Positions 1 through 55,923 of a stretch of DNA of 64,000 nucleotides are shown here, piece by piece. Origin of the DNA: an uncultured bacterium. Its GTDB lineage: Bacteria > Fidelibacterota > Marinisomatia > Marinisomatales > JABMOV01. The DNA is taken from the NCBI GenBank assembly GCA_964654545.1, contig CAZZIU010000002.1, forward strand, positions 48,903-112,902, read 5' to 3'. Position numbers and translations under genes: made by a program. Numbering within the stretch: position 1 is the first letter of the stretch; each line of letters starts with the position of its first letter. The notes beneath the pieces were generated by a model. The model was not told the DNA's origin and searched no databases. It saw only the letters and a list, made by a program, of their open reading frames with translations.

Positions 1-477
1 TTTGCCAAAATGCCCGGTGGGTATATTTTTGGAATTCTCTTTTTTCTGCTACTAACCCTTGCAGCATTAACATCTGCAATATCATTGTTGGAAGTGGTGG
101 TGGCTTATTTCGTGGATGAAAAAGGTTGGGGAAGACATAACGCGGTAATGGTGTTTGGCTTCGTCACTTTTTTGCTCGGGGTATTGAGCGCCCTCTCTTT
201 TAATGTCATGGCTGATTTCACAATTTTTGGAATGAACTTTTTTGACATTTCCGATTATCTGGCATCCAATATTCTACTTCCATTGGGCGGATTTTTCATT
301 GCTATTTTTGTGGGATGGGTCTGGGGAATTGATAAGGCAATTCTTGAATTAAAACATGGTGCAGAGTCGATCATTGAAAACAACCAGTGGTTTACCATAC
401 TATGGTCGATATTTTTGAAAATTATTTCACCCATACTCATATTCATTGTGTTACTTTACAAACTAGGTATCATTTAA
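1..477 (+). CDS. Sodium-dependent transporter, neurotransmitter:sodium symporter (SNF/NSS) family, C-terminal part; the 5' end lies outside the window
   Basis: The frame is open from base 1 (FAKMPGGYIFGILFFLLLTLAALTSAISLLEVVVAYF...). The hydrophobic TM pattern and the AALTS..SLLE segment are typical of NSS transporters. Confidence 0.75.
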   Translation, partial: FAKMPGGYIFGILFFLLLTLAALTSAISLLEVVVAYFVDEKGWGRHNAVMVFGFVTFLLGVLSALSFNVMADFTIFGMNFFDISDYLASNILLPLGGFFIAIFVGWVWGIDKAILELKHGAESIIENNQWFTILWSIFLKIISPILIFIVLLYKLGII

Positions 478-489
478 CCGGAGAAATTT

Positions 490-1293
490 ATGTGGATCGC
501 CCGTCTCTTACCAGAAGGCACAAGTCGTTACGCCTCTGCTGCTACACTATTTAAATCATTGGATTGGATAATGGATTATAGACCATTGGAATGGTTTACA
601 CCGTGGATCATATTTGCAGCAGGTGTAGGATGGAGGAAAGCCGTAGCAGATCGGTATTTTTTCTGGGATTTCTCAAACTGGGGTTTGGAAGTGGCCGTTG
701 CCCTGATTTTTGGAGTTGGTTTTGCATGGTTTCTAAAAAACAATGATACGTTACCAATAGATCGGCAATTGGAGAATCCATTGAGAGGATTTACTCTCTA
801 TTTAGGAATAGGAATCGTACTATTTCTCGTTGGATGGTTTGGAAACCCACTAACCGGACTAGCGGTTGGGTATCCGTATTTTCTCTCCATTCTTGCCATC
901 ATGGCGATATTTATGATCCCACTTGGGAAAGATGAAAAGGATTCCTACAAAATCCTTGATCATAAAAAACGAATTTCTTTTTCAGCTTTTTCATTTGGAT
1001 TATCCGTTCTTGTAGTTGCAATCGGATTTATGCAGGATGAACCGGTCATAAGCACAGCCGCAGCTGTTTATGCACTTTTTCCGTTGGCATCGCTCATCGC
1101 ACCTCATCCACGTCATGTGAGAAGGGCAAGACTGTATTCCGTATTTATATTTGGATTCTTTATTTCAATGCGAGCTCCCTGGTTGTTGATAATGATGTTT
1201 GTCCATTTTCATGGGATGCGGTTTTACAATTATTTTCGTCATGGAATTGTTTCTCCGACACTCATAATAGAAGCAAAAGAGGATCAGCGCTGA
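490..1293 (+). CDS. Polytopic integral membrane protein of unknown family (about 7 TM), first gene of the ferredoxin/GGR cassette
   Basis: GGAG lies upstream of the ATG. Multiple hydrophobic helices, and a His-rich C-terminus (HPRHVRRA...HFHGMRFYNYFRHG). I recognise no family motif. Confidence 0.6.
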   Translation: MWIARLLPEGTSRYASAATLFKSLDWIMDYRPLEWFTPWIIFAAGVGWRKAVADRYFFWDFSNWGLEVAVALIFGVGFAWFLKNNDTLPIDRQLENPLRGFTLYLGIGIVLFLVGWFGNPLTGLAVGYPYFLSILAIMAIFMIPLGKDEKDSYKILDHKKRISFSAFSFGLSVLVVAIGFMQDEPVISTAAAVYALFPLASLIAPHPRHVRRARLYSVFIFGFFISMRAPWLLIMMFVHFHGMRFYNYFRHGIVSPTLIIEAKEDQR

Positions 1294-1294
1294 C

Positions 1295-1471
1295 GTGATT
1301 GAAATTGAAAAAAATAAATGTGATTTCTGTGGCTGCTGTGTTGGGGTTTGTCCCCCTGATTGTATAGAGCTTAAAGAAGCAGAAATCTCCATTGACCATG
1401 CTATCTGCATTGATTGTGACCTGTGTGTGTATGTTTGTCCAATAGAAGTACTGCACCATGTGGAAAGATAA
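1295..1471 (+). CDS. 2x[4Fe-4S] ferredoxin, 58 aa (absent from the supplied ORF track)
   Basis: GTG 1295 to TAA 1469-1471 translates to VIEIEKNKCDFCGCCVGVCPPDCIELKEAEISIDHAICIDCDLCVYVCPIEVLHHVER, which has two CxxCxxCxxxCP motifs. There is a 1-nt gap to the upstream stop and a 14-nt overlap with the next ATG. Confidence 0.8.
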   Translation: MIEIEKNKCDFCGCCVGVCPPDCIELKEAEISIDHAICIDCDLCVYVCPIEVLHHVER

Positions 1472-2645
1472 TTCATACGACATCATTGTTGTTGGCGGTG
1501 GTCCTGCAGGATCAACGTTTGCATTGCATGCGGCGCAGGCTGGGTTGGCAGTCATCCTATTGGAGAAAGACCGGGATATCGGAATGCCTGTCCGTTGTGG
1601 AGAAGCAGTTAGCGACGCGGGATTACGAATATTTCACGAACCGCAGGAAAGGTGGATTCGATCCACTATAAATCAAATAAAATTGGTGGCACCGGATAAA
1701 ACCGAAATTGAATTTGGTTTAAAGGAACACGGATATATCCTTGATCGGAGAATTTTTGATTATGATTTGGCACAGTATGCCGGGAATGCGGGAGCCAAAA
1801 TTGTTACGAAAGCATACGTAAATGGACTGCTTTTTGATAATGATACCGTTTGCGGTGTCACCGGTGAGCACCTGAATGAGGCATTTTCTATAAAGGCAAA
1901 ATTGGTTGTTGGTGCGGATGGTGTTGAAAGCAGAATCGGACGATTCGCAGGCATCAGTACTTCCATCAAACTTAAAGATATGGAATCAGCGATTCAGAAA
2001 ACTGTATCGGGGATTAAGGTCAAGCCAAGCCGATTTGATTTCTATTTATCAAGTTTCTGGGCTCCCGGCGGATATTTGTGGGTATTCCCAAAAGGAAAAA
2101 ATATGGCAAATATCGGATTAGGAATCTCCGGCACCTATGCACGCCAGGGTATAGCAGCTCATACCTTTCTGGAAAGGTTTATTGAAGAATACTACCCCAG
2201 TGCATCGGTTCTTACTACGGTAGTAGGTGGTGTACCCGTCGCAAAAACATTAAAACAAATCACAGCAGATGGATTGGTATTGGTAGGGGATGCTGCGCGG
2301 ACAGTAAATCCGGTAACCGGTGGTGGAATTATCTCAGGTATGCGTAGTGGCCTGTTGGCTGCAGAGAATGCAATTGATGTAATTAAAGCCGGAAAACATC
2401 CATCCACAAATAACTTACGCGGGTATGAAAAATCCTGGCACAAGATTGGTGGGAAAAACCATGAAAGATTCTATCGCCTCAAAGAAGCAATATTTCGATT
2501 TACCGATAGTGATTTAAATCGGATTGCCGATGCTATTGTCAAAATACCGGAAGCCGATCGAAATCTATTCAAGTTGTTTTCCACCGCTGTGGCAAAAAAA
2601 CCATCTTTGTTGGTTGATGTTGCTCGCTTATTTACAGGAATTTAA
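1458..2645 (+). CDS. Geranylgeranyl reductase family FAD-dependent oxidoreductase
   Basis: N-terminal dinucleotide fold YDIIVVGGGPAGS, plus RCGEAVS, VVGADGVESR and PGGYLWVFPKG, all characteristic of GGR/BchP-type reductases. Confidence 0.85.
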   Translation: MWKDNSYDIIVVGGGPAGSTFALHAAQAGLAVILLEKDRDIGMPVRCGEAVSDAGLRIFHEPQERWIRSTINQIKLVAPDKTEIEFGLKEHGYILDRRIFDYDLAQYAGNAGAKIVTKAYVNGLLFDNDTVCGVTGEHLNEAFSIKAKLVVGADGVESRIGRFAGISTSIKLKDMESAIQKTVSGIKVKPSRFDFYLSSFWAPGGYLWVFPKGKNMANIGLGISGTYARQGIAAHTFLERFIEEYYPSASVLTTVVGGVPVAKTLKQITADGLVLVGDAARTVNPVTGGGIISGMRSGLLAAENAIDVIKAGKHPSTNNLRGYEKSWHKIGGKNHERFYRLKEAIFRFTDSDLNRIADAIVKIPEADRNLFKLFSTAVAKKPSLLVDVARLFTGI

Positions 2646-5467
2646 TGGAATTATCTAAATTATTACATGAAGTACAATTATCCACGTTTATTGCTTTCGA
2701 TTTTGAAACCACAGGTTTGGACCCGGAAAACGATCGAATCATAGAAATCGCGGCCATTCGATTTGAAAATGGCAAACCTGCAGATTCATTTGTTACACTG
2801 GTTAATCCAAAACAGGATATATCGCAATTCATCACAGAAATCACCAGTATTTCTAATGATATGGTGAAGAATTCCCCAATTGAAGATGATATAATAGAAG
2901 AATTTTATGATTTTTTAGGCAGCGATCCACTGGTTGCCCACAATATAAGTTTCGATATCTCTTTCCTGAAATCTTTATGGAGGCGACATCACAAAGAATT
3001 ACAACCGCATGAACTCTATGATACATTGCCTTTGGTAAGGTCATTAATGTTTGATAATCCTGCTTTTAACCTCGGTACATCCGCTGAAATGTTCGGTTTA
3101 GATGCAAAAGGATCTCACCGGGCAAAGAAAGATGCTGAAAATTGTGGATTCATATTCACCAAATTGGTAAATGAAGTACCAAGTCTATCAATGGAGACAC
3201 TATCTAAAATTGTCGAAGTGACGCAATATTATGATATGCCAAACAAGCCATTATTCGAACGAATGGCAAATATGGTTGCCCGTCAGGGAATCTCGAGCGG
3301 TTCTCTTGAGCCATCATCCGTGAAGCGGAATATGGAATCAAATATTTATCAACGAAACGGAAAGCATAATGCCAGTGATTTCAGTGCTGATAATGTGTTT
3401 GGCCAATCAGGATTTTTGTCCATATCCATGGAAAAATACGAAGAGCGACACGATCAAATTCGATTTGCTCAATTTGTAGAGGATCGGATAAACGGTGAAA
3501 AGTCCATAGGGGTCATAGAAGCAGGTACCGGTTTAGGGAAATCCATGGCCTATCTGTTCCCTGCATTAAAGAAATCCTCTGAATTCACTGATGATGGACC
3601 GGTCATCGTATCTTGTTATACAAAGCATTTGCAGGATCAACTGTTTTTCAAAGATTTACCTAAGCTTGCTGACTCGGCGGATATATCGGTTCAGGCGGTG
3701 GTATTGAAAGGCCGAAGAAATTATATCTGTAAAACTAGATTTTTCGCCTTGCTCGCTGATGCAAAACGAATGCTATCAGCAAATGAGGTGGAATCATTAC
3801 TGCCCATCCTGGTGTGGTTAGACTATACAAATACGGGAGACTTATCAGAATGTGGCGGTTTCTGGAGCGGAAAACCATCGCGTCTTGTATCCATGATCAG
3901 TAGTGAGCCAGGTTACTGTACTACATCACTATGTAAAAAACACGAAGGCTGCTATTTTGGAAAACTCCGACAAGCGGTTTTTAATGCTCAATTAATAATC
4001 GTGAATCATTCACTATTATTAACGGACATGGGGGCGCCGGGCTATTTGCCTGAATACAACACGGTCATTATTGATGAAGGGCATAATCTGGTAAGCGCCG
4101 CGTACCAGCAATTAACCATTGCCATGGACAAATACGTTGTACAGAATACATTGCGGGATGCAGACCCAACTCAGGCATTAAACTTTCGATGGACACATAC
4201 CATGGATTATTTAGCCTCTGTGAACAACGAAATGATGCGGCACAAAGACCATCTTTTCCAATTGGCTGAAAAATGCGCAACAACTGCAGATGCAATGTTT
4301 GGTTCCATGGCGGCAACATATGTTGATCGTTACAATCCAAATGATGCGTATACCAAAAAAGTCATTACAGACAATTTAATGGAAGAATACGGTCCGGTTT
4401 TTGGGGAAATCCATGCCTTCCTTGCTGAGATAAAAGCGTACCGCGAAGTATTTGACAAGATAAAGCAGATTGCCCTGAATCATGAATCTCCTGAGACAGA
4501 ATACCCGGAATTAAAACTAGCTCTGGAAAAAAACATTGAGCAGTTGGATACACTTGCCACTGTAATACAAAAGTTAACAGAACAACAGAACGGTGATTGG
4601 GTCTACTGGCAGGAAGGACGATTCTACCGTAAAGTTCCAATGCAACCCACATTGGAAATAAAATTAAATGCAGCACCAATAAACGTATCTGAAACATTGC
4701 GATCGGAATTTTTTGAACAATTGGATCATGCTGTCATTACTTCAGCGACACTGCAGGTGGATGATTCATTTAAATATTTTCAGGCCAGGGCCGGTTTAGA
4801 TGGAAGCATTCAAAGAAAAGTAAAAGCAACAACCTTCCGGAGTCCATTTTACTATCCTGATCAGGTAAAATATTATCAGTACAGTGGCGCTCAGACGATC
4901 ACCAATAACCCGGAGGCGATTGCATCGGTAATATATTCAAGCTATAAACGCCATGGGAAGCGTATAATGGCATTATTTACCGCTCATGCCATACTCAACG
5001 CGGTGTACCATGCATTACGCAGGAAACCGGGAGGAAAAGAGTTACCACTTTTTGCCCAGGGATTTGGTTCTTCAAGGTATGGCCTGATAAAAGGAATGTC
5101 ATCCGTCGAAAATGGAATTTTACTTGGTACCAATTCGTTTTGGGAAGGTGTTGACCTACCGGGGGACTTACTGGAAATATTAATTATAACAAAATTGCCA
5201 TTTGATGTACCCAGTGAACCAATCATTAAAGCGTATTCGGATATGATTAAGGAACAGGGCGGAAATAGTTTTCTTGAATATTCCATACCAGAGTGTGTCA
5301 TGAAATTCCGACAGGGATTTGGGCGATTGATTCGTACCACCACTGATGACGGTATTTTTATCGTACTGGATGAACGCATTATTACCAAACGTTACGGTCA
5401 ACATTTTCGTGATGCTATTCCTGTGCCATTTACCATATTTAGCCAAATCGAAGAATTAGAATATTAA
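2645..5467 (+). CDS. dinG: DinG-family ATP-dependent DNA helicase with N-terminal DEDDh (DnaQ-like) 3'-5' exonuclease domain and Fe-S cysteines
   Basis: Exo motifs AFDFETTGL, AHNISFDISFL and HRAKKDAENCG. Walker A AGTGLGKS and DEGH box IIDEGHNL. Cysteines C362 and C425-x4-C430-x5-C436. Confidence 0.85.
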   Translation: MELSKLLHEVQLSTFIAFDFETTGLDPENDRIIEIAAIRFENGKPADSFVTLVNPKQDISQFITEITSISNDMVKNSPIEDDIIEEFYDFLGSDPLVAHNISFDISFLKSLWRRHHKELQPHELYDTLPLVRSLMFDNPAFNLGTSAEMFGLDAKGSHRAKKDAENCGFIFTKLVNEVPSLSMETLSKIVEVTQYYDMPNKPLFERMANMVARQGISSGSLEPSSVKRNMESNIYQRNGKHNASDFSADNVFGQSGFLSISMEKYEERHDQIRFAQFVEDRINGEKSIGVIEAGTGLGKSMAYLFPALKKSSEFTDDGPVIVSCYTKHLQDQLFFKDLPKLADSADISVQAVVLKGRRNYICKTRFFALLADAKRMLSANEVESLLPILVWLDYTNTGDLSECGGFWSGKPSRLVSMISSEPGYCTTSLCKKHEGCYFGKLRQAVFNAQLIIVNHSLLLTDMGAPGYLPEYNTVIIDEGHNLVSAAYQQLTIAMDKYVVQNTLRDADPTQALNFRWTHTMDYLASVNNEMMRHKDHLFQLAEKCATTADAMFGSMAATYVDRYNPNDAYTKKVITDNLMEEYGPVFGEIHAFLAEIKAYREVFDKIKQIALNHESPETEYPELKLALEKNIEQLDTLATVIQKLTEQQNGDWVYWQEGRFYRKVPMQPTLEIKLNAAPINVSETLRSEFFEQLDHAVITSATLQVDDSFKYFQARAGLDGSIQRKVKATTFRSPFYYPDQVKYYQYSGAQTITNNPEAIASVIYSSYKRHGKRIMALFTAHAILNAVYHALRRKPGGKELPLFAQGFGSSRYGLIKGMSSVENGILLGTNSFWEGVDLPGDLLEILIITKLPFDVPSEPIIKAYSDMIKEQGGNSFLEYSIPECVMKFRQGFGRLIRTTTDDGIFIVLDERIITKRYGQHFRDAIPVPFTIFSQIEELEY

Positions 5468-5537
5468 ACCAGATTTTTCTTTAATTCTTTTATTTCAACA
5501 GCTTGTATTCTAAATCCCAGGTATCCTAATTTCGCCA

Positions 5538-8521
<2,984 letters not shown>

Positions 8522-8523
8522 AT

Positions 8524-8778
8524 CTAAGAGAGTGAATTAACGTGCTTCGTTAATTGCGCTTTTTTCCTGGCCGCGTTATTCTTATGTATCAGGTTTGCGC
8601 TGGCCATTTTATCCACAAAGCTTACCGCATCACGATAAGGTTGTTCAGCGTCTTTAGCTTTTTTAATATTTAGCACATTTTTTACTAGCGTGTTCATCCT
8701 GGATAAATTTTTAATATTTCGTTCCCTACGGGTTTTATCCTGGCGTTCGCGTTTAATTTGTTGCGGATGTCTATCCAT
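8524..8778 (-). CDS. rpsT: 30S ribosomal protein S20
   Basis: 84 aa and very basic. QIKRERQDKTRRERN...HKNNAARKKAQL matches the S20 pattern. Convergent with guaB, with a 2-nt gap. Confidence 0.9.
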   Translation of the reverse strand: MDRHPQQIKRERQDKTRRERNIKNLSRMNTLVKNVLNIKKAKDAEQPYRDAVSFVDKMASANLIHKNNAARKKAQLTKHVNSLS

Positions 8779-8959
8779 TCAAATAATATTCCTTCGTATT
8801 TAGCCGCGAAAATTATTTCACACTGATTTACAAATCAACGAATAATGCACGCTGTCCGTTAATATTATTGCAGGGGTTCACTTTTACAAAGTTTATATGA
8901 TTAATTGGTAGTGCAATCTCATATTTTATGGCAGGTAGCATTTCCGTACATTTTCTTGC

Positions 8960-11900
8960 GTGAACACTATGAAAAACCCTCTAATCATCTGTTACTTAAT
9001 AGGTATTGCTTCACTTCATGGGGAAATACTTTATGAACGAGGAAGTCTGCGAGAATTTGTTGGAGGAAATTCAACAACATCCGAATACGATAATTATGTA
9101 TCCCACGTTGTAGAGGGTATTGCCGACCCTGGCTACAATGACTATGGTCCTGACTGGCTGGATGTCCAATCAAACGGATTTGGGAATTATACAGAGATTC
9201 CTGAAAATTCTCCGATTTTAACTTATTGGCAGGTGATTTTTCAATCGATTGTGGTAGGTGACACCACCACTGCAGACCAATTGCTCTCTGATTCTCTGGA
9301 TATATTTCACTACAACCTGGTTGTTTTTACCGATACAACGACCAACCGCGAATACTTCATGGTGAGAGAACAGCTGGATATGTCTTTTGTTGATCAGAAT
9401 TTACCTGCCACACCCAACGATGACGTTACCGGTAGCTTTACCAATGGGTGGGGACTCTTTGTCTATAGTCCTAGTGCGACCCGATCGCAGGTGCTTTTTG
9501 AAGTTCCCCATCCCTGTGATGATTTCATATCTCCCTACATTGCCACAGAGGCGTTTTTGGTCACAGATGCAAGGGCAATATGTTATTCTGGTACGGGAAG
9601 GGAAGTAATCTGGACGAATGTAGAGTCCTATTCCAATAATAAATCTTTATCAGATCCGTCAAGAAATGCCAATACTGTCTTTCATGTATTTCATCAAGTT
9701 GTATCAGAAGCACTATTTATGGAAGCATTGCATTCGCCAATTGTATTCCAAATACACAGTTTCGACAATGACGCGCACGAAGGGCTTCATTCGATTGTAT
9801 TATCAGCGGGCGCATTACACCCGATAGCAAATAAGCCTATTCGAGATTTATCATCCGATCATCGCGATATTATAAATTTCACCGAAGAGATCACTATTTA
9901 TGCAAACACATTTGGCCCCCACGGCTTGGTTCGTGTGGATGGTTATTATGAAGTATTTTACGATGATAATTTTCAGTACTTTGGTGACTATGGAACGTAC
10001 CCTATTAAAAAGGCCACTGAATTAAAAGGATCATCCAGTAATGTTCAATTAAATCACATCCATGGTATGCACAACAGCCGCGATGTGTATGAACCATTTG
10101 TCCATGTTGAATGCGATGAAAAGCCGGAAATATTTGATGCCATCAATATGCCACTTGATACGTTGTATGCCGGTGAGTATCCCACTTCATACATGAATTT
10201 TTCCATATTACTGGAATATTATGAGCCATTTATAAACGCCCTTGATGCCTACCTAACTGATTGGGAGACAGTCACCGATATAACGAGCCCGGATTCCATT
10301 TCAATCTTTTATCCTGTGACATTACTCCCTGACAATTCAAATTTTCAATGGGCTCCGGTTGAGGATACAAATTTTGAATCTTACCGGATTTATTTTGATA
10401 CCTTGACAATTCAACCTAATTCTCCCTATTTCGACAGAAATCAATTTTCGTTTTTGGCCGATATGCGAACAAATCACATATCCATTCCAACTAATGTATT
10501 GCCTGATACGTGTTTTTTAAGCATTCGCGCAATTGACTATTTGGGAAATGAATCACCCCTTTCAGAATCAGTACCAAATTATTTTGCAAATCATGGATTA
10601 CCGGTTACTGTCGTTGAATATGTGGATACATTGCAAAGTTTTGGATCCTATGGAGATGAAGATGTGGAACCTGAAGGATGGTCTTTCGATTCGGCAGGTA
10701 CAGATCAGCTTTTGTTATCGCTATTCGGTAATACATGGAAAACCCAGTCCATTAATCCATATTCTATTGACAGTACCAGCGTCTGGATTGTAAATACAAA
10801 AATTGATTCGATTGGAGAAATACAAGGACTGGGATTTAGGGCAGGGAATGATATCCTATGGTATTCATTTCATGGTTTAGAAGAATTGGATATTGAAGAA
10901 TGGGTAACGGTTTACCAAGGTTATTTTCCTACCGGACTATGGAATACTATTTACCTGCCCATAGGTGATGACTGGATAGCCAGATTTGAATACGAACCGG
11001 AAATAGAAGAGATAATCTACGTCAATGATGCAGATGCAGTAATTCCAGGCTCAATTCAGTTCAGGTCAATAGTAGATCTCACACCGGATCAGTATATCCC
11101 GCCTGAAGTATCTATTCAATCCGATGTGGGACCTGTGAGACGAATTGGAAGTGAGCGGAATGTCGTTGTTGATTTCTCTGCCTCTATTCAGGATCCTGAC
11201 AGCTACATTTTTCAATATCTCTGGCATTTTGGTGATGGCTCAACCAGTCCTGATCCTGATCCCTCCCATACCTACTCGGTATTGGATGATCACACCTATT
11301 CTGTTGTATTGGAGGTGATTGATCAACAGGGAGAAATTGGCAGAGGATATGCTCATATATTAGTAGATGAAGGAGAATCATCTTTGCCGATTCGATTGAA
11401 TTTTGTTGGGGACATTATGTTGGCTCGTCGCTTGGAAGATGCAGGTGGCGTCATCCCAACTAATGGTGTGGATGCACTGTTTGAGCCCACAATTGAGTTA
11501 TTCGGTAATGCGGCTGATTTATCGATTGCCAATCTGGAATGTGTATTAACGGATAGAGGGTCACCACATCCAACAAAGTCAATTGTATACCGCGGTTCAC
11601 CTGAAAATGTGACTGGTCTGGAAAATGCCGGTATTGATATAGTGTCGCTGGCAAACAACCACATGTTAGATTACGGTGATGAGGGGCTATACCAGACCCA
11701 GACGTTGTTAACCAATGCCAATATCAATTTCAGTGGTGCGGGGGAAAATTCAGTGATGTCATATCGACCACTCATAGTGTCCAGAAAAGGAATATCATTG
11801 GCATTTTTAGCATCTAGCGATCGAACCGGTCAATACAATAATTATCAGCCCTATCTAAATGCGGGTCTAAATAAAACCGGATTTGCCTATATGACGCCCT

Positions 11901-13762
11901 ATTATATTCGTGAACAAATCAATCAGGTAAAAAACGATGTGGACCTCGTTATTATGGAATTCCATGCGGGGAGTGAATATTCGGTAGAACCTGGAGCCGG
12001 ATATGATAATTATGATCCATCGGTTGCATTTGCTGAACAACGACAGAGCCGGACAGCGTATTTTGGTGTCAATAATGAAGATGATCAGGATGAAGATTAT
12101 TCTTATAGAATAGATGTGCCTCACATGTGGGATAGGGAAATCCGGCAATTTGCACTTAATGAAGGGGCTGATTTGGTGGTCGTTCATCACCCCCATAAAA
12201 TCCAGGGAATGGAAGTTATCGATGGGAAATTAATTGCCCATTCTTTAGGTAATTTTATTTTCGATATGGATTATCCGGAAACCATGCCGTCAGTTATATT
12301 AAATGCCGAAGCTGAACCAGATAGTTTTATTGCCTTTTCCTTAAACCCGATTTTCATAGATCATTATATTCCAAACCCTGCCACAGGGGAATTGGGCAAC
12401 TATATTCTATACGATTTGGCCATGAAATCGTTCAATCTAAACACGTATTTGCATGTGGATCCCTTTAGTCAGGTGGCGCATATTGTTCTCGATCCGGCTT
12501 CAATCTCCCAGTATCATATTCCAAATCGAAGATCTTTTAGCATTGTTGATGGTTCATGTCGACCCATTTCTATCCATACAACTGGAGGAATTTCTTTAAT
12601 GAACACGGTCACGCCTGATGATGCCTGGGATATGCGGTTTGGTCGGGAATTATTATGGTATGGGAATTTTGAATCGGAAGGTTCAAATATGTGGAACACC
12701 AATAGTGATGATGAGAGCATAGTATGGGATGAATATCATGATGGTGAGCGGAGTCTGTTTCATCGTCGAACTCAAACTTCCGGTGATAATATTGTGACCA
12801 ATCTTCTGAATAGACTCCCACTTAAACCAGATATTCCAATAACCCTTTCGGGATGGATAAAAACCGACAATGGAAACAATGTAACAATTGAAATTAGATT
12901 TTATGAAACTCGATACTCTACCACTATAATATCAACTTTTGATTCGGGTGAATGGGTGACAGGGAATTCATCCTGGAAGTATTACTGGAATGACATTGAC
13001 GTCCCGGCAAACGCACAGTTTTTTGACATTCGTTGCAACAGCGGATTGCCAGATAGCGGAGAAGCAAATTCCTGGTTTGATGATATAAGCGTATTGCAGT
13101 GGGAAACCTGGTTACCGGTTTCTGGAGATATGATAATACCCTATCCCAACGATTATGTAGGAATGCAATTAAACTCAACGGCTGACAATGATACTGGTGT
13201 CGTAGAGTTCTATGAGTCTTATCTGGACAATCCACCAATTGTTATTCCCGAGTTCTCTGTAGAACAACGTGCGATCCAAGTACCATCTGTTGTCCAGTTT
13301 AACAATACCAGCGAGGGGCTACATGGCTGGTGGCAATGGGATTTTGGCGACGGTGTCACATCCATAAACAAGGAACCGGTTCATGAGTATACCAGTCCTG
13401 GGTTTTACGATGTCACATTATCCATCTTAGATCACAACGGGATTTATCAAACGACTACCCTTCCTAATTACATCGTCGCAATTTCAGATACCATCACGCA
13501 GGATGGTGATATAAATCTGGATGGTAATGTTAATGTTTTGGATATAATTACATGTGTTAATTTTATTCTGGGATACAACCAGATTAATCCTGATCAATTC
13601 ATAGCCACTGATTTGAATGTTGACTTCCAAATCAATATTTTTGATCTTTTATTGCTGGCAGATATCGTTATTACTGGAGATCGAATTGGTGACGAAGGCA
13701 TTCAAATATTAAATTCCGTATATGAAAATAATAAAACATATAATAATATAAATATAAAGTAA
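8960..13762 (+). CDS. Giant secreted multidomain protein: N-terminal unknown (possibly zinc-amidase-like) domain, PKD, CapA-like metallophosphatase domain, second PKD, C-terminal dockerin-like repeats
   Basis: Signal peptide MKNPLIICYLIGIASLHG (the ATG at 8969 may be the true start). PKD motifs WHFGDGSTS..HTYS and WDFGDGVTS..HEYTSPGFYDVTL. CapA motifs FVGDIML, NLECVLTD, LANNHMLDYG, HAGSEY, VVHHPHKIQG. Dockerin-like DINLDGNVNVLD and DLNVDFQINIFD. Confidence 0.8.
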   Translation: MNTMKNPLIICYLIGIASLHGEILYERGSLREFVGGNSTTSEYDNYVSHVVEGIADPGYNDYGPDWLDVQSNGFGNYTEIPENSPILTYWQVIFQSIVVGDTTTADQLLSDSLDIFHYNLVVFTDTTTNREYFMVREQLDMSFVDQNLPATPNDDVTGSFTNGWGLFVYSPSATRSQVLFEVPHPCDDFISPYIATEAFLVTDARAICYSGTGREVIWTNVESYSNNKSLSDPSRNANTVFHVFHQVVSEALFMEALHSPIVFQIHSFDNDAHEGLHSIVLSAGALHPIANKPIRDLSSDHRDIINFTEEITIYANTFGPHGLVRVDGYYEVFYDDNFQYFGDYGTYPIKKATELKGSSSNVQLNHIHGMHNSRDVYEPFVHVECDEKPEIFDAINMPLDTLYAGEYPTSYMNFSILLEYYEPFINALDAYLTDWETVTDITSPDSISIFYPVTLLPDNSNFQWAPVEDTNFESYRIYFDTLTIQPNSPYFDRNQFSFLADMRTNHISIPTNVLPDTCFLSIRAIDYLGNESPLSESVPNYFANHGLPVTVVEYVDTLQSFGSYGDEDVEPEGWSFDSAGTDQLLLSLFGNTWKTQSINPYSIDSTSVWIVNTKIDSIGEIQGLGFRAGNDILWYSFHGLEELDIEEWVTVYQGYFPTGLWNTIYLPIGDDWIARFEYEPEIEEIIYVNDADAVIPGSIQFRSIVDLTPDQYIPPEVSIQSDVGPVRRIGSERNVVVDFSASIQDPDSYIFQYLWHFGDGSTSPDPDPSHTYSVLDDHTYSVVLEVIDQQGEIGRGYAHILVDEGESSLPIRLNFVGDIMLARRLEDAGGVIPTNGVDALFEPTIELFGNAADLSIANLECVLTDRGSPHPTKSIVYRGSPENVTGLENAGIDIVSLANNHMLDYGDEGLYQTQTLLTNANINFSGAGENSVMSYRPLIVSRKGISLAFLASSDRTGQYNNYQPYLNAGLNKTGFAYMTPYYIREQINQVKNDVDLVIMEFHAGSEYSVEPGAGYDNYDPSVAFAEQRQSRTAYFGVNNEDDQDEDYSYRIDVPHMWDREIRQFALNEGADLVVVHHPHKIQGMEVIDGKLIAHSLGNFIFDMDYPETMPSVILNAEAEPDSFIAFSLNPIFIDHYIPNPATGELGNYILYDLAMKSFNLNTYLHVDPFSQVAHIVLDPASISQYHIPNRRSFSIVDGSCRPISIHTTGGISLMNTVTPDDAWDMRFGRELLWYGNFESEGSNMWNTNSDDESIVWDEYHDGERSLFHRRTQTSGDNIVTNLLNRLPLKPDIPITLSGWIKTDNGNNVTIEIRFYETRYSTTIISTFDSGEWVTGNSSWKYYWNDIDVPANAQFFDIRCNSGLPDSGEANSWFDDISVLQWETWLPVSGDMIIPYPNDYVGMQLNSTADNDTGVVEFYESYLDNPPIVIPEFSVEQRAIQVPSVVQFNNTSEGLHGWWQWDFGDGVTSINKEPVHEYTSPGFYDVTLSILDHNGIYQTTTLPNYIVAISDTITQDGDINLDGNVNVLDIITCVNFILGYNQINPDQFIATDLNVDFQINIFDLLLLADIVITGDRIGDEGIQILNSVYENNKTYNNINIK

Positions 13763-19026: not shown

Positions 19027-20667
19027 TTGTCTATTATAAAAGCAGGTAAGACTTATTTGGTAACTAGGTTATTTTTGTTTTTAATAGCAAGCTTTCCAGT
19101 TGGATTAATCGGCCAGGTAAACCCCAAATATGATCCCATGGATTGGGTTTTATTCCGACAGGCTGGTTCTATTGGTTCCATTACCCAGGGATTTTCGTAT
19201 ATCTATCTTGGTTCGTCCGATGGAGGAATATATCGATACAATATATTTCGGCAGGAGTGGGATGATCCATTAACGCAGGCTCAGGGATTACCCGATAATA
19301 CTATAGAATCTGTTCTATTTGATAAAAACTCAGGAACCCTGTGGGTGGCAACGCCAGGACACATTAGTTACACTTACAACCGCGAGGGGCATTGGTATAA
19401 CATTGCAAAAAGTGACCTTGGGCTGAATAAAAAGTTTACTGTTGAACGCATTGGATATTCAGATAACTACATTTGGATTGATGCAGGGACTCTGTATTAT
19501 CAGTTGGACAGGTCGACAGGAATATTACTCAATGCAATACCTCATCCTGACGAAACCAACATTCGATGGAATAGTGGGTTGGTGGAAAATTATGTTGAAT
19601 TTCCACCCGAATATCAGGATTATACTATTATGGATGGCTGGATATTCCAAGTGGATCGATTTTTAGATTATTATGGACGGACAGTTTTCGCAACGACATT
19701 TTTCTTGCAGGAAGACGGAACATTATGGGTGGGTACGAACAAAGGCTACGTACTTACAGCGGATCCAAGAATGAAAATTTTTAAACCGTTTAAGTTAGGG
19801 ATGGCAAACACAGATGTGACATCTATAATGGGCGAATCCAGCCTGTATTTATCCGGTAGGATTACTTCGACCAGCGTTGGAATTACCTATTTTGATCCCA
19901 ATCGAAATATTATTGACTGGTATGAACCGGAAGTTATTGTCAATCTACCTGATGTTTCGTTTACTTCATCATTGGAGACGCCAAACCATTATTGGTTCGG
20001 AGGCGATGGACAACTATCAATTTACAATAAAAAGGACGGATTCTGGAAAACGATATCAGCGGTGAATTGTAATAGCATTTATACAATGGTTTGGGATTCT
20101 GGAGAAGTGTGGATAGGCGGAAACGGAGGCATTGATCGGTTTAACGCTAGGACTGTCTCACGTTTTCACGCTGAAATTGAATCCTTGCTGCACTCTGTTA
20201 CCGTTTATGACATAGAAGTAAATGGTGACGAAATATGGTTTGCTACAAGTGAAGGTATAATTGTTTATAATAAAACAACTGATCAGCTAATGGACGGCAA
20301 TCAATGGGCAAAACAATTAAATGATGTTATTCTTATTTCCTGGAACATTGAAATGGTAGATTCCAGCATTCTTACAGCCAGTAATTCTGGTATACACAGT
20401 TGGGACAAGGCTACGCATCAAGTCGATTTAATTGTGGATCCTTCCCAATACCAAAACCAACCTGTTACAGCCTTTGAGGTCCTTGATTCTACTCTATTTG
20501 TTGGAACCCAAAACGGGCTCTACCGTATGGGATGGGATGGCACAGGCTACTATCACTACAATTATTCGTTTATTCATCACGTAAACGATATGTATATTAA
20601 CAATGACGATTGTTGGCTAGCTACAGACCAAGGCCTGGTCTGGTTCAACTGGAGAAAGGATTTATGA
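19027..20667 (+). CDS. Secreted beta-propeller protein (two-component-regulator-propeller-like repeats)
   Basis: Repeats of W..T..GL / WVGT..G type (LWVATPGH, LWVGTNKGY, VWIGGNGGI, IWFATSEGI, LFVGTQNGL). Signal-like TRLFLFLIASFPVGLIGQ. The start could be TTG 19027 or TTG 19057. Confidence 0.6.
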   Translation: MSIIKAGKTYLVTRLFLFLIASFPVGLIGQVNPKYDPMDWVLFRQAGSIGSITQGFSYIYLGSSDGGIYRYNIFRQEWDDPLTQAQGLPDNTIESVLFDKNSGTLWVATPGHISYTYNREGHWYNIAKSDLGLNKKFTVERIGYSDNYIWIDAGTLYYQLDRSTGILLNAIPHPDETNIRWNSGLVENYVEFPPEYQDYTIMDGWIFQVDRFLDYYGRTVFATTFFLQEDGTLWVGTNKGYVLTADPRMKIFKPFKLGMANTDVTSIMGESSLYLSGRITSTSVGITYFDPNRNIIDWYEPEVIVNLPDVSFTSSLETPNHYWFGGDGQLSIYNKKDGFWKTISAVNCNSIYTMVWDSGEVWIGGNGGIDRFNARTVSRFHAEIESLLHSVTVYDIEVNGDEIWFATSEGIIVYNKTTDQLMDGNQWAKQLNDVILISWNIEMVDSSILTASNSGIHSWDKATHQVDLIVDPSQYQNQPVTAFEVLDSTLFVGTQNGLYRMGWDGTGYYHYNYSFIHHVNDMYINNDDCWLATDQGLVWFNWRKDL

Positions 20668-39937: not shown

Positions 39938-40095
39938 ACATTTCGTGGGAACAATCACACATAACAATCATTTCTTGATTGATCGACGAGCTAGGGATAT
40001 ATTCGCCGACTGAAAATGAGGAGTAGTTAATCGAATAATTGTTATCATTTGGGAAACCAATTCCCAATCGAATTACTAACATTGGAGAAATTTCT

Positions 40096-55150: not shown

Positions 55151-55912
55151 ATGGACGAAAAAAAGAGGCATCGTATTTCCGATTTACTGGAATTTTTAAT
55201 TGTACTGTCACTGGTATTCCTTTTTATCGTGTTAACGGTTCCCATAGCCATCTGGGAAGAAGAAGCACAGGCCGAAAAAGAAGCAAGATTCCGCATGAAG
55301 ACCATGAACGGAGTTCAGCAGTTTTATAAGACTTTAACCGGGCAATACGAAAACGATGATTTTTGGGCAATAAAAGTTGTGAATGCAGTGCGAGATTCTG
55401 TTGTTGCAGATTCTATGTTTGTCGGTGAACAATTGGTCCTACTCGATGATAAAGAATTCGTTGTGGAAATTCCTGATAAATTTAATGTTGACGTGGACAC
55501 CACGTTTGGATTCCAGCGGACAAGAAGAGATACGATGAATGACACGACGGTTACCTATCTTTCTTATGTTATGAAAAATACCGGTGAAATTGATTATGAC
55601 TTGATTGATACTTCATATACCCCTATCAAAAAGTTGAGCGAAATTGAACAAGATTCTCTCTTTATACGGATTTTAAAGCAGGAACCGGTACAACGGGTTG
55701 AATTAACAACCTATTACGATACATACGCACCGGACTCAAGTTTTATGTATTGCCCTGTGACGATACAACAATTTATAACTTCGATCGAAGAGGACCAATT
55801 TAGAATTGATTGTCCCATTGCTGATGTAGTCAAAGAACCACGTTATCTCATATTTTCATTTTCAGCCTCAAATCATGGATACATGAAAGATGGTGTCACA
55901 AGCTGGGATTAA
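55151..55912 (+). CDS. Membrane-anchored hypothetical protein with a pilin-like N-terminal helix
   Basis: RISDLLEFLIVLSLVFLFIVLTVPIAIW followed by an amphipathic helix. I recognise no domain. Confidence 0.5.
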   Translation: MDEKKRHRISDLLEFLIVLSLVFLFIVLTVPIAIWEEEAQAEKEARFRMKTMNGVQQFYKTLTGQYENDDFWAIKVVNAVRDSVVADSMFVGEQLVLLDDKEFVVEIPDKFNVDVDTTFGFQRTRRDTMNDTTVTYLSYVMKNTGEIDYDLIDTSYTPIKKLSEIEQDSLFIRILKQEPVQRVELTTYYDTYAPDSSFMYCPVTIQQFITSIEEDQFRIDCPIADVVKEPRYLIFSFSASNHGYMKDGVTSWD

Positions 55913-55923
55913 ATGATTAGCTT

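What the first reader, a model, noticed from the sequence alone, without database searches (positions are those of the whole stretch)
490..2645. Membrane protein / ferredoxin / geranylgeranyl-reductase cassette: a possible dedicated isoprenoid-saturation module in an FCB-type bacterium
Seen in sequence: three co-directional genes joined by a 1-nt gap and a 14-nt overlap. The first is a roughly 7-TM protein of no family I can name, with a His-rich tail (HPRH...HFHGMRFYNYFRHG). The second is the ferredoxin. The third is a 395-aa protein with GGR hallmarks (VVGGGPAGS, RCGEAVS, PGGYLWVFPKG). Established: this reductase family includes archaeal digeranylgeranylglycerophospholipid reductases, and in Methanosarcina a neighbouring ferredoxin has been reported as the electron donor. 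It also includes bacterial BchP/ChlP and menaquinone side-chain reductases. Archaeal-type ether-lipid genes have been discussed for FCB-group bacteria. Inference: this is a ferredoxin-dependent polyprenyl-chain reductase working with an uncharacterised membrane partner. The substrate (lipid, quinone or polyprenol) cannot be told from this window.
Basis: partly seen in the sequence, partly recalled or inferred. Interest (0 to 1): 0.55.

Follow-up and report, generated by a model that had tools for sequence, protein, structure and literature searches.

The report
Motif-less UbiA relic with ferredoxin–GGR pair
In this marine Marinimicrobia genome, a ferredoxin and an archaeal-type enzyme that saturates isoprenoid chains sit next to a membrane protein that turns out to be a decayed prenyltransferase: it has lost its catalytic motifs but is still kept by selection.

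Summary
The three genes are real and lie exactly as described. The reductase (1458-2645) is a genuine geranylgeranyl-reductase family member. It scores closest to archaeal lipid reductases, not to BchP/ChlP or MenJ. The 58-aa protein (1295-1471) is a 2x[4Fe-4S] ferredoxin, and this same ferredoxin sits directly upstream of the reductase in 83 of 87 loci from several FCB phyla.

The "unnameable" membrane protein (490-1293) can now be named: it is a degenerate UbiA-superfamily prenyltransferase.
- Profile searches link it to Pfam-positive UbiA proteins (hhalign probability 99.8%).
- Basal Marinimicrobia, KSB1 and other MAGs carry a canonical UbiA in the same slot, with both Asp-rich motifs. Its nearest solved relative is archaeal DGGGP synthase.
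- On a reductase tree, motif 1 is lost first and motif 2 next. The crown clade that includes this window also holds short forms missing about 65 residues. A sister clade lost the gene altogether.
- The relic is still under purifying selection (dN/dS 0.08-0.35).

Best reading: an ancestral FCB prenyltransferase-ferredoxin-reductase cassette in which ferredoxin-to-reductase remains the catalytic core, and the UbiA relic survives as a probably non-catalytic membrane partner. The substrate is unknown, and no lipid genes occur elsewhere in the window. This is a new variant of a known kind, of moderate interest.

The parts
490..1293 (+). Degenerate UbiA-superfamily membrane protein (267 aa). It lacks both Asp-rich motifs and about 65 residues found in canonical relatives (motif 1 and the segment after it, by my reading two helices).
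   Evidence: No Pfam or NCBIfam hit. A profile of it and 6 relatives finds 193 proteins, including Pfam-positive UbiA members. hhalign against the canonical subgroup gives probability 99.8% and E 1.5e-27. It is the positional orthologue of UbiA-positive proteins in L008, L045 and L049. dN/dS is 0.08-0.35. AF2 model: pLDDT 93.6.
742..783 (+). Junction of the deletion (residues 85-98, NNDTLPIDRQLENP). Canonical relatives carry NQxxDxxxDxxNxK and roughly the next 50 residues here.
   Evidence: The hhalign gap falls between query residues 93 and 94 and spans template columns about 86-150. Motif columns are shown.
916..951 (+). Former second Asp-rich loop, now IPLGKDEKDSYK. Canonical relatives have T(T)xPDxxGDxxxxKxTF. 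This stretch is not conserved among the degenerate forms.
   Evidence: Alignment columns. The AF2 model places a beta-hairpin at residues 145-155.
1219..1263 (+). C-terminal family signature RFYNYFRHGIVSPTL (consensus YYxxRFxxxYPTF), shared by canonical and degenerate members.
   Evidence: Y246 and P256 are conserved in both groups.
1295..1471 (+). 2x[4Fe-4S] ferredoxin (58 aa, GTG start). Its start lies 1 nt after the stop of the UbiA relic, and its end overlaps the reductase start by 14 nt.
   Evidence: PF00037 34.7 bits (cut-off 21.1) and PF13237 30.2 bits (cut-off 25.5). An orthologous ORF lies directly upstream of the reductase in 83 of 87 loci.
1319..1354 (+). First cluster motif, CDFCGCCVGVCP (C9, C12, C15, C19-P20).
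   Evidence: Read directly from the translation. Conserved in all aligned orthologues.
1406..1441 (+). Second cluster motif, CIDCDLCVYVCP (C38, C41, C44, C48-P49).
   Evidence: Read directly from the translation. Conserved in all aligned orthologues.
1458..2645 (+). FAD-dependent geranylgeranyl reductase family protein (395 aa), archaeal-type.
   Evidence: TIGR02032 212.1 bits (cut-off 158.8) and PF22578 80.3 bits (cut-off 27). Best PDB match is 3oz2, the T. acidophilum reductase, at 236.8 bits. There are 3367 homologues at E<=1e-20.
1488..1514 (+). FAD-binding Rossmann motif VVGGGPAGS (residues 11-19).
   Evidence: Translation. G13-G18 are invariant in alignment A2.
1593..1613 (+). RCGEAVS, with Cys47 aligned to the RCGE cysteine of Thermoplasma GGR.
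   Evidence: Residue-by-residue alignment to 3oz2. R46-A50 are invariant in A2.
2064..2096 (+). PGGYLWVFPKG, the PxxYxWxFP motif of the GGR catalytic cavity.
   Evidence: Aligned to APAGYIWVFPKG of 3oz2. Invariant in A2. The motif is named in PMC10821996.

Best explanation
This is the Marinimicrobia version of a three-gene cassette that is widespread in FCB-group bacteria: a UbiA-family prenyltransferase, a small 2x[4Fe-4S] ferredoxin, and an archaeal-type geranylgeranyl reductase.

The working part here is the ferredoxin-reductase pair. Reduced ferredoxin passes electrons to the FAD of the reductase, which hydrogenates C=C bonds of a membrane polyprenyl chain. This step is inferred from family membership and from the Methanosarcina precedent.

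The first gene descends from a prenyltransferase whose nearest solved relative is archaeal DGGGP synthase. In this lineage it has lost both Asp-rich Mg-diphosphate-binding motifs and about 65 residues (shown). It most likely no longer transfers prenyl groups (inferred). Purifying selection still keeps it as an 8-helix membrane protein (shown).

Its most likely present role is as a non-catalytic membrane partner. It may hold or present the prenyl lipid, or dock the ferredoxin-reductase pair at the membrane. This last step is speculative. The substrate (ether lipid, quinone or polyprenol) cannot be told from this window.
For: Homology and decay of the UbiA relic:
- The profile search gave 193 hits. 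The distant ones pass the Pfam UbiA threshold: P0275 86 bits, P0263 77.6, P0227 65.9 and P0157 39.9, against a cut-off of 34.2.
- hhalign of the degenerate against the canonical subgroup gives probability 99.8% and E 1.5e-27 over 248 columns, with one gap of about 65 residues over motif 1.
- Canonical members carry NQxxDxxxDxxNxK and TxPDxxGDxxxxKxTF. The window protein has neither.
- UbiA-positive proteins occupy the same slot between the SNF transporter and the ferredoxin in L008, L045 and L049.
- The reductase tree shows an ordered series from m1+m2+ to m1-m2+ to m1-m2-. Short forms of 256-281 aa are confined to the crown clade, beside 310-319 aa forms. A sister clade has an empty slot, and one KSB1 locus (L073) lost the motifs independently.
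- 118 degenerate sequences keep the non-catalytic conserved positions of the canonical family. These are W39, G45, G115, Y130, D184, P196, F197, R212, Y216, Y246 and P256. No new conserved polar or charged residues appear.
- dN/dS of the relic is 0.08-0.35, so it is not a pseudogene.

Cassette:
- A ferredoxin ORF lies directly upstream of the reductase in 83 of 87 loci, and a UbiA-like ORF upstream of that in 71 of 87.
- The trio is kept in different surroundings. In Marinimicrobia it is SNF...DinG. In KSB1-type loci it is PurF...PgsA-like/FtsY.
- The canonical subgroup's best PDB match is DGGGP synthase 6m31, E 4.8e-15.

Reductase: family scores and conserved motifs.

Precedent: M. acetivorans GGR needs a ferredoxin to fully reduce archaeal lipid in E. 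coli. I know this only from the title of Isobe et al. 2014, as cited in PMC7852524.
Against: - Foldseek with two AF2 models of the window protein (pLDDT 81.5 and 93.6) found no UbiA-fold structure in the PDB, best E 0.74-0.85. Homology therefore rests on sequence profiles, intermediates and synteny, not on fold.
- The ferredoxin-reductase pair exists without any UbiA-like neighbour in Kryptonia, Bacteroidetes, Ignavibacteria and one Marinimicrobia clade. The pair need not have a UbiA-like gene next to it, and the relic could simply be on its way out.
- The relic evolves faster than the reductase, at 51-58% against 79-86% amino-acid identity in the same genome pairs.
- Within Marinimicrobia the whole neighbourhood is syntenic, unrelated genes included. 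Co-occurrence inside the phylum is therefore weak evidence.
- No physical interaction, activity or substrate has been tested.
- No other isoprenoid-lipid gene was found among the window ORFs I scanned.
Confidence: 0.6

Rival explanations
1. The three genes still form a complete biosynthetic unit. The motif-less UbiA homologue remains an active prenyltransferase, or another lipid-modifying enzyme, using non-canonical residues. The ferredoxin-reductase pair then saturates its product.
For: The gene is under purifying selection. It is translationally packed against the ferredoxin. The window's close subgroup has a conserved basic cluster (R208, H209, R212, R214, R228, R244, R250) that could in principle bind a phosphate group.
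Against: Motif 1 is deleted outright, and the motif 2 loop is not conserved among degenerate forms. Both motifs are invariant in the canonical relatives. From general knowledge of UbiA enzymes, they bind the Mg-diphosphate of the prenyl donor. Across 118 degenerate sequences no new conserved acidic or basic positions appear. The basic cluster is conserved only in the 7 closest sequences.
Confidence: 0.12
2. The adjacency is only historical. The UbiA relic now does something unrelated in the membrane, or is slowly being lost. The ferredoxin-reductase pair works alone, as it does in lineages without the gene.
For: The ferredoxin-reductase pair occurs without a UbiA-like gene in 15 full loci; a 16th (L015) is cut at its 5' end. 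The relic evolves faster than the reductase. The whole Marinimicrobia neighbourhood is syntenic, and tight spacing extends to the unrelated SNF and DinG genes.
Against: The relic has persisted through deep divergence, down to 33% identity, with invariant positions and dN/dS well below 1. It has never moved away from the ferredoxin-reductase pair in any of 71 loci.
Confidence: 0.22
3. The module serves archaeal-type ether-lipid synthesis. The reductase saturates di-O-geranylgeranylglyceryl phospholipids made by a separate GGGPS and a canonical DGGGPS elsewhere in the genome.
For: The reductase scores best against archaeal DGGGPL reductase models and 3oz2. The ancestral cassette's UbiA is nearest to DGGGP synthase 6m31. 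A PgsA-like CDP-alcohol phosphatidyltransferase follows the reductase in KSB1-type loci. Coleman et al. 2019 report GGGPS and DGGGPS orthologues in all 12 FCB phyla surveyed, including Marinimicrobia (PMC6431249). Cloacimonetes enzymes made unsaturated archaeol-PG in E. coli, and those MAGs encode Euryarchaeota-like GGRs (PMC7852524).
Against: The reductase is far below the equivalog cut-offs (247 against 780, 187 against 580). No GGGPS, G1PDH, CarS or canonical UbiA was found among the window ORFs scanned. G1PDH was reported only in Fibrobacteres and Cloacimonetes. The only cultured Fidelibacterota strain is described with ordinary fatty acids, and ether lipids were not examined (PMC11652737). 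GGRs are described as promiscuous (PMC10821996).
Confidence: 0.3
4. The reductase saturates another polyprenyl compound, such as a menaquinone side chain (MenJ-like role), a polyprenol or dolichol-like carrier, or free GGPP or phytyl precursors (BchP/ChlP-like role).
For: GGR-family enzymes act on many polyprenyl substrates (PMC10821996). The protein passes only the superfamily-level model TIGR02032. The pair persists where the prenyltransferase is degenerate or gone, as expected if the substrate comes from elsewhere.
Against: Scores against BchP-ChlP (139 against a cut-off of 343), ChlP (76 against 505) and MenJ (64 against 700) are lower than against the archaeal lipid reductase models. The same ranking holds for FCB relatives. 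No quinone or pigment genes are nearby.
Confidence: 0.25

Closest known systems
Methanosarcina acetivorans GGR with its cognate ferredoxin (Isobe et al. 2014, J Bacteriol 196:417; known to me only through its title as cited in PMC7852524)
   Same: A GGR-family flavoenzyme paired with a small ferredoxin. By the paper's title, both are required for full reduction of archaeal lipid in E. coli. Here a ferredoxin is conserved directly upstream of the reductase in 83 of 87 FCB loci.
   Different: This one is bacterial (Marinimicrobia). I could not compare the ferredoxin sequences because that paper is not held. Activity and substrate are untested. The cassette here also carries a UbiA-derived gene.
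Thermoplasma acidophilum digeranylgeranylglycerophospholipid reductase (PDB 3oz2)
   Same: It is the best solved relative: 236.8 bits, aligned over residues 6-362. It shares the GxGxxG motif, the RCGE cysteine, the PxxYxWxFPKG motif and the GDAA...GGG motifs.
   Different: The window protein falls well below NCBIfam's equivalog cut-off for that family (247 against 780). Whether the Thermoplasma enzyme uses a ferredoxin was not examined here.
Archaeal DGGGP synthase (M. jannaschii, PDB 6m31), within the UbiA superfamily (PF01040)
   Same: Canonical members of the cassette's membrane-protein family pass the Pfam UbiA threshold. Their profile matches 6m31 best, at E 4.8e-15, ahead of AfUbiA 4tq3 and chlorophyll synthase. 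The window protein is homologous to them.
   Different: Even the canonical FCB members are far below every NCBIfam UbiA-subfamily cut-off, at most 62 bits against 269. They also carry a distinctive C-terminal YYxxRFxxxYPTF tail. The window protein lacks both Asp-rich motifs and about 65 residues, and Foldseek does not recover the fold.
Ca. Cloacimonetes GGGPS-DGGGPS locus and GGRs (Villanueva et al. 2021, PMC7852524)
   Same: FCB-group bacteria with archaeal-type isoprenoid lipid genes, including GGRs said to be closely related to Euryarchaeota.
   Different: There GGGPS is co-localised with DGGGPS, and the paper text I read does not describe where the GGRs lie. Here the arrangement is UbiA-like, ferredoxin, GGR, with no GGGPS recognised among the ORFs I listed in 15 canonical loci. 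Whether the cassette's UbiA is the same orthologue as their DGGGPS was not tested.

Membership tests
Geranylgeranyl reductase family (TIGR02032 / PF22578) | Scores above the curated family thresholds | tested here: met
   TIGR02032 212.1 bits against 158.8. PF22578 GGR_cat 80.3 bits against 27.
Geranylgeranyl reductase family (TIGR02032 / PF22578) | N-terminal FAD-binding GxGxxG, the RCGE cysteine (Cys47 of T. acidophilum GGR) and the PxxYxWxFP cavity motif | tested here: met
   VVGGGPAGS, PVRCGEAVS and PGGYLWVFPKG align residue for residue with 3oz2. They are invariant in 10 relatives.
Geranylgeranyl reductase family (TIGR02032 / PF22578) | Hydrogenation of polyprenyl C=C bonds | not testable with these tools
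   Needs an enzyme assay or heterologous expression.
Archaeal digeranylgeranylglycerophospholipid reductase (NF041160, NF041080) | Score above the equivalog cut-off | tested here: not met
   247.1 against 780 and 186.8 against 580. These are the best-scoring named models, but the protein is not a member by NCBI's criterion.
BchP/ChlP (TIGR02023, TIGR02028) | Score above the family cut-off | tested here: not met
   139.4 against 343.3 and 76.2 against 505.3.
Menaquinone reductase MenJ (NF045655) | Score above the equivalog cut-off | tested here: not met
   64 against 700.
2x[4Fe-4S] ferredoxin (PF00037 / PF13237) | Two CxxCxxCxxxCP motifs in a small protein, and score above threshold | tested here: met
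   C9/C12/C15/C19-P20 and C38/C41/C44/C48-P49. PF00037 34.7 against 21.1 and PF13237 30.2 against 25.5.
GGR-cognate ferredoxin (Methanosarcina type) | Encoded next to the reductase and co-conserved with it | tested here: met
   Directly upstream in 83 of 87 loci across Marinimicrobia, KSB1, Kryptonia, Bacteroidetes and Ignavibacteria. The sequences are orthologous.
GGR-cognate ferredoxin (Methanosarcina type) | Donates electrons to the reductase | not testable with these tools
   Needs biochemistry.
UbiA prenyltransferase superfamily (PF01040) | Score above the Pfam gathering threshold | tested here: not met
   No Pfam hit for window 490-1293 at E<=0.01. Relatives in the same syntenic slot do pass: P0157 39.9 bits, L083 81.1 and L087 73.2, against 34.2.
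UbiA prenyltransferase superfamily (PF01040) | Common descent with bona fide members | tested here: met
   hhalign probability 99.8%, E 1.5e-27. HMMER profile hits to Pfam-positive UbiA proteins. Positional orthology. Graded intermediates.
UbiA prenyltransferase superfamily (PF01040) | First Asp-rich motif (N[DQ]xxDxxxD) in the loop after TM2 | tested here: not met
   The region is deleted in the window protein.
UbiA prenyltransferase superfamily (PF01040) | Second Asp-rich motif (DxxxD / DxxGD) in the loop after TM6 | tested here: not met
   Replaced by IPLGKDEKDSYK, which is not conserved among degenerate forms.
UbiA prenyltransferase superfamily (PF01040) | UbiA fold recognisable by structure comparison | tested here: inconclusive
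   Two AF2 models (pLDDT 81.5 and 93.6) gave no Foldseek PDB match better than E 0.74. All-helical membrane bundles with two helices removed may escape Foldseek. I could not superpose coordinates myself.

The most novel reading that the evidence does not exclude
The 267-aa protein is a UbiA-superfamily pseudoenzyme. In this reading it is a former DGGGPS-like prenyltransferase that lost catalysis but was kept across the abundant ocean clade SAR406/Marinimicrobia. It would serve as the membrane subunit of a ferredoxin:polyprenyl-lipid reductase complex, using the old prenyl-binding cavity to hand lipid chains to the reductase. The graded series from canonical to motif-less to truncated or absent would then record, step by step, how an archaeal-type lipid cassette inherited by FCB bacteria was dismantled or repurposed.
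Probability: 0.3. Interest if true: 0.7.

Novelty: new variant of a known kind. Interest (0 to 1): 0.55.

Why it matters
- Whether FCB-group bacteria really make archaeal-type isoprenoid lipids is an open question in the lipid-divide debate. This cassette adds a conserved prenyltransferase-ferredoxin-reductase unit to the known GGGPS/DGGGPS genes, and none of the papers I searched or read describes it.
- In one of the most abundant deep-ocean phyla, the prenyltransferase of that unit has been catalytically disarmed while the saturation pair is kept. That gives concrete candidates for experiments: canonical against degenerate forms, with and without the ferredoxin.
- It cautions against scoring 'UbiA/DGGGPS present' from homology alone.
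- If the relic is a working non-catalytic subunit, it would be an unusual pseudoenzyme in the UbiA superfamily. My one literature search found no report of one.
- It also assigns about 190 representative clusters of previously unassigned membrane proteins to a known superfamily.

Tried and rejected
- Pfam and NCBIfam on the membrane protein gave no hit.
- The word-indexed homologue search found only 7 relatives and gave no functional lead. The exhaustive profile search was needed.
- Foldseek against the PDB, with both a shallow-MSA and a deep-MSA AF2 model, gave no meaningful match and no UbiA structure. Structure therefore gave no support either way.
- Sigma-70 promoter and terminator scans of 1-9000 were no better than shuffles, 23 against 24.6 and 6 against 7.9. 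FCB promoters are not covered by that tool, so the operon boundaries are undefined.
- Rfam found only tRNA-Ser in the window.
- A Pfam scan of 45 window ORFs found no GGGPS/PcrB, canonical UbiA, G1PDH, CarS or quinone genes. A few long ORFs were not scanned: 8960-13762, 41451-44279 and 44295-47243.
- I tested whether the unrecognised 265-aa ORF in the slot of L088 is a further-decayed relic. hhalign probability was 5%, so it is not claimed.
- I tried to recover the 159-kb source contig through exact-protein look-up. Only a 1.5-kb ENA contig was returned for the membrane protein, and nothing for the reductase. The rest of the genome could not be searched.
- Isobe et al. 2014 (PMC3911245) is not held.
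- A literature search for UbiA pseudoenzymes returned nothing.
- I considered a gain of compensating basic residues (R208, H209, R228). I rejected it as a general feature because those residues are conserved only in the 7 closest sequences, not across 118 degenerate ones.
HMM score ranking was used instead.


Full report
**Observation.** There is a 1-nt gap and a 14-nt overlap, and every quoted peptide is present. Tight spacing is not peculiar to the trio. The SNF-family transporter upstream ends 12 nt before 490. The DnaQ-exonuclease/DinG-helicase gene downstream starts on the last base of the reductase gene. Consensus promoter and terminator scans are no better than chance, and Rfam finds only a distant tRNA. 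Spacing and signals therefore do not delimit an operon.

**Organism.** Close homologues of both the membrane protein and the reductase are named Marinimicrobia, Neomarinimicrobiota, Fidelibacterota or 'FCB group bacterium'. The 'FCB-type bacterium' guess is right.

**Reductase.**
- It passes the curated thresholds for the geranylgeranyl reductase family: TIGR02032 212.1 bits against 158.8, and PF22578 80.3 against 27.
- Among named subfamilies it scores best against archaeal digeranylgeranylglycerophospholipid reductase models (247 and 187 bits). BchP-ChlP (139), ChlP (76) and MenJ (64) follow. It is below the cut-off of every one of these.
- The same ranking holds for relatives from KSB1, Kryptonia and a second Marinimicrobia clade.
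- Its best solved relative is Thermoplasma acidophilum GGR (3oz2, 236.8 bits). The GxGxxG motif, the RCGE cysteine and PxxYxWxFPKG align residue for residue and are invariant in ten relatives.
- It is therefore a GGR-family enzyme of archaeal type, not a BchP/ChlP or MenJ orthologue. This rests on HMM scores rather than on a tree, because I had no reference sequences offline.

**Ferredoxin.**
- The 58-aa protein has two CxxCxxCxxxCP motifs and passes PF00037 and PF13237.
- I scanned GTDB species genomes with a reductase alignment and found 354 relatives. The best 80 were fetched with flanks.
- Adding the loci fetched earlier, a ferredoxin ORF of this type lies immediately upstream of the reductase in 83 of 87 loci.
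- The ferredoxins are clearly orthologous across Marinimicrobia, KSB1, Kryptonia, Bacteroidetes and Ignavibacteria, with consensus MIxIxxxxCDFCGxCVxVCPxDCIELxEAxIxI...CxDCxxCVxVCP.
- This two-gene module is the conserved core. The precedent is the Methanosarcina acetivorans reductase, which needs a ferredoxin to fully reduce archaeal lipid in E. coli. I know this only from the title of Isobe et al. 2014, as cited in PMC7852524. The paper itself is not held.

**Membrane protein: what it is.** This is the main new result.
- Pfam and NCBIfam find nothing, and the word-indexed search finds only seven relatives.
- A profile of those seven, searched exhaustively against 1.84 billion representatives, finds 193 proteins.
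- The weaker hits are proteins of 285-351 aa that pass the Pfam UbiA gathering score of 34.2: P0275 86 bits, P0263 77.6, P0227 65.9 and P0157 39.9.
- In an alignment of 98 full-length members, these carry the two UbiA hallmarks, NQxxDxxxDxxNxK and T(T)xPDxxGDxxxxKxTF. The window protein has a gap where the first should be, and the unrelated, unconserved IPLGKDEKDSYK where the second should be.
- All members share a distinctive C-terminal YYxxRFxxxYPTF signature.
- Profile-profile comparison of the degenerate group with 16 canonical members gives probability 99.8% and E 1.5e-27 over 248 columns. There is a single gap of about 65 residues covering motif 1 and the segment after it, which I read as two helices.
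- P0157, which is UbiA-positive with motif 2 intact, occupies the very same slot in another contig. The order there is AlaRS-GcvP-RidA-DAGK-DUF5683-SNF-UbiA-ferredoxin-GGR-DinG-HAL-IMPDH. Its ferredoxin was not called by the gene caller but is present.
- L045 and L049 have fully canonical 347-aa UbiA proteins in that slot.
- The window protein is therefore the positional orthologue of a UbiA prenyltransferase.

**Membrane protein: how it decayed.** I mapped the state of the UbiA-like gene onto a neighbour-joining tree of the linked reductases.
- Basal Marinimicrobia (L045, L049) have both motifs.
- L008, L051 and L053 keep only motif 2.
- L052, L044, L047, L048 and L050 have neither motif but are still about 294-333 aa long.
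- The large crown clade that includes the window has neither motif. Its members are either 256-281 aa or 310-319 aa.
- A separate Marinimicrobia clade (L059, L060, L062, L064, L066, L072) has SNF, ferredoxin, GGR and DinG with the slot empty.
- One KSB1 locus (L073) lost both motifs independently.
- The relic is not a pseudogene. Nei-Gojobori dN/dS for unsaturated pairs is 0.08-0.35, compared with 0.04-0.17 for the reductase and 0.08-0.21 for canonical UbiA pairs.
- It does diverge faster than the reductase: 51-58% against 79-86% identity in the same genome pairs. Canonical UbiA keeps pace with the reductase.
- Across 118 degenerate and 38 canonical sequences, the positions conserved in the degenerate group are mostly ones also conserved in the canonical group: W39, G45, G115, Y130, D184, P196, F197, R212, Y216, Y246 and P256. 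No new conserved charged positions appear. I see no sign of a replacement active site.

**Structure.**
- AF2 with the 7-sequence alignment gave pLDDT 81.5. With a 56-sequence alignment it gave 93.6 and pTM 0.89, showing eight long helices and a short hairpin where motif 2 used to be.
- Foldseek against the PDB returned nothing better than E 0.74 for either model, and no UbiA structure.
- I treat this as inconclusive rather than contrary. The query is an all-helical bundle missing two helices, and I could not superpose coordinates. Even so, the fold is not independently confirmed.

**The cassette beyond Marinimicrobia.**
- Sixteen loci carry a canonical UbiA directly upstream of the ferredoxin-reductase pair. 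They come from KSB1, from several unclassified MAGs, from MAGs labelled Deferribacteres or Cytophagia, and from some Marinimicrobia.
- Their surroundings differ from the window's. PurF lies upstream. Downstream there is often a PgsA-like CDP-alcohol phosphatidyltransferase (PF01066 114-121 bits; TIGR00560 96-110 against a cut-off of 109), followed by FtsY and a MiaB-like gene.
- Conservation of the trio in different contexts is the real evidence that the three genes belong together. Inside Marinimicrobia the entire neighbourhood is syntenic, so co-occurrence there proves little.
- In Kryptonia, Bacteroidetes and Ignavibacteria the ferredoxin-reductase pair stands without a UbiA-like neighbour. 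It is flanked by a large upstream ORF that I did not identify, and by DUF7033 and EamA proteins.
- The canonical subgroup's profile matches M. jannaschii DGGGP synthase best among solved structures (6m31, E 4.8e-15). AfUbiA 4tq3 and chlorophyll synthase come next.
- All NCBIfam UbiA-subfamily scores are far below their cut-offs, at most 62 against 269.
- Public sources call these proteins only 'UbiA family prenyltransferase' or '4-hydroxybenzoate polyprenyltransferase'. This looks like an uncharacterised UbiA subfamily nearest to DGGGPS.

**Mechanism.**
- Shown: family membership of the reductase and ferredoxin; their co-conservation; homology, motif loss, truncation and continued selection of the UbiA relic.
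- Inferred from the families: reduced ferredoxin donates electrons to the reductase's FAD, which hydrogenates polyprenyl double bonds. Loss of both Asp-rich motifs abolishes prenyl-diphosphate activation.
- Speculative: the relic persists as a non-catalytic membrane partner that binds or presents the lipid, or docks the soluble pair.
- The substrate is open. The archaeal-lipid reading gains support from the reductase's affinities, from the DGGPS-like ancestry of the relic, and from the PgsA neighbour in KSB1. Literature also reports GGGPS and DGGGPS orthologues in all twelve FCB phyla surveyed, Marinimicrobia included (PMC6431249). Cloacimonetes are reported to have Euryarchaeota-like GGRs (PMC7852524).
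- Against it: G1PDH was reported only in Fibrobacteres and Cloacimonetes. No lipid genes were found among the 45 window ORFs I scanned. The one cultured Fidelibacterota strain is described only by ordinary fatty acids (PMC11652737). GGRs are described as promiscuous (PMC10821996).

**Comparison and novelty.**
- The ferredoxin-reductase pair is a new bacterial member of a known kind.
- The UbiA-ferredoxin-GGR cassette is a gene arrangement that none of the papers I searched or read describes. In Cloacimonetes it is GGGPS that sits next to DGGGPS.
- A UbiA homologue that has shed both catalytic motifs and yet stays under selection next to its old partners is, as far as my searches show, unreported.
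- I rate it a new variant of a known kind, with interest 0.55. The evolutionary series is clear and bears on whether FCB 'archaeal lipid genes' are functional. The present function of the relic and the substrate both remain inference.

Noticed in passing
window 2645-5467 (+): A 940-aa DnaQ-type exonuclease fused to a DinG helicase (NF005981, 585 bits, below its 789 cut-off). Its start overlaps the last base of the reductase gene. It follows the reductase in nearly all Marinimicrobia loci, although it has no obvious link to lipid chemistry.
   Followed up: partly
L069:6197-6829, L071:2732-3334, L077:6181-6744 (also L070, L073): In KSB1-type loci a PgsA-like CDP-alcohol phosphatidyltransferase (PF01066; TIGR00560 96-110 bits) lies directly downstream of the reductase. 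A head-group enzyme thus sits next to the prenyltransferase-ferredoxin-reductase trio.
   Followed up: partly
L081:1447-4791: In an unclassified bacterial MAG, the ferredoxin-reductase pair is preceded by a radical SAM/SPASM protein (352 aa) and two ORFs of about 380 aa that I did not scan. There is no UbiA-like gene. Radical SAM enzymes make archaeal tetraethers, so this neighbour may deserve a look.
   Followed up: no
L076:6177-8461 (also L078, L079, L085, L086): In Kryptonia and Bacteroidetes loci the reductase is followed by a conserved 469-aa DUF7033 protein. In L076, L079 and L086 an EamA transporter comes after it. Function is unknown.
   Followed up: no
L059, L060, L062, L064, L066, L072 (about 4618-4808): One Marinimicrobia clade has SNF, ferredoxin, GGR and DinG with only about 190 nt where the UbiA-like gene should be. 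This is complete loss of the relic with the pair retained.
   Followed up: partly
L073:3807-4808: A KSB1 MAG carries a full-length (333 aa) UbiA-like protein whose two Asp-rich motifs are both degenerate (LNQVMERKSSETKSK and EAVENSPSDDSQGK). Its close relative L077 is canonical. This looks like an independent loss of the catalytic motifs.
   Followed up: no
L088:3954-4751: A 265-aa hydrophobic ORF fills the slot between SNF and the ferredoxin. It shows no significant similarity to the UbiA-like family (hhalign 5%). It may be a remnant beyond recognition or an unrelated insertion.
   Followed up: yes
L035, L061, L065, L068-L071, L088 (record titles): MAGs labelled Parcubacteria, Deferribacteres, Cytophagia or Lentisphaeria carry reductase loci that group with Marinimicrobia or KSB1 in gene order and in the reductase tree. 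Their taxonomic labels are probably unreliable.
   Followed up: no
L003:2204-3115, L008:3287-4186, L045:1075-2001: A DAGK_cat/YegS-type lipid kinase (Pfam-supported in L003 and L008; judged by position and length in L045) lies three genes upstream of the UbiA-like gene in several Marinimicrobia. The window starts too late to show whether it is present here.
   Followed up: no
window 1-64000: Almost every ORF of 120 aa or more is on the + strand, and cumulative GC skew rises steadily across all 64 kb. This suggests a single replichore with strong co-orientation of genes.
   Followed up: no
window 8960-13762 (+): A 1600-aa ORF with a signal-like N-terminus. By eye it has PKD-like repeats and a dockerin-like C-terminus. 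It was not scanned against any library.
   Followed up: no
window 31152-33633, 55151-57534: Four sizeable ORFs (411, 452, 253 and 536 aa) have no Pfam family at E<=1e-5.
   Followed up: no
window 19027-20667, 40039-41430: Type IX secretion components are present: a PorZ-like beta-propeller protein and PorV. This fits an FCB-group organism.
   Followed up: no
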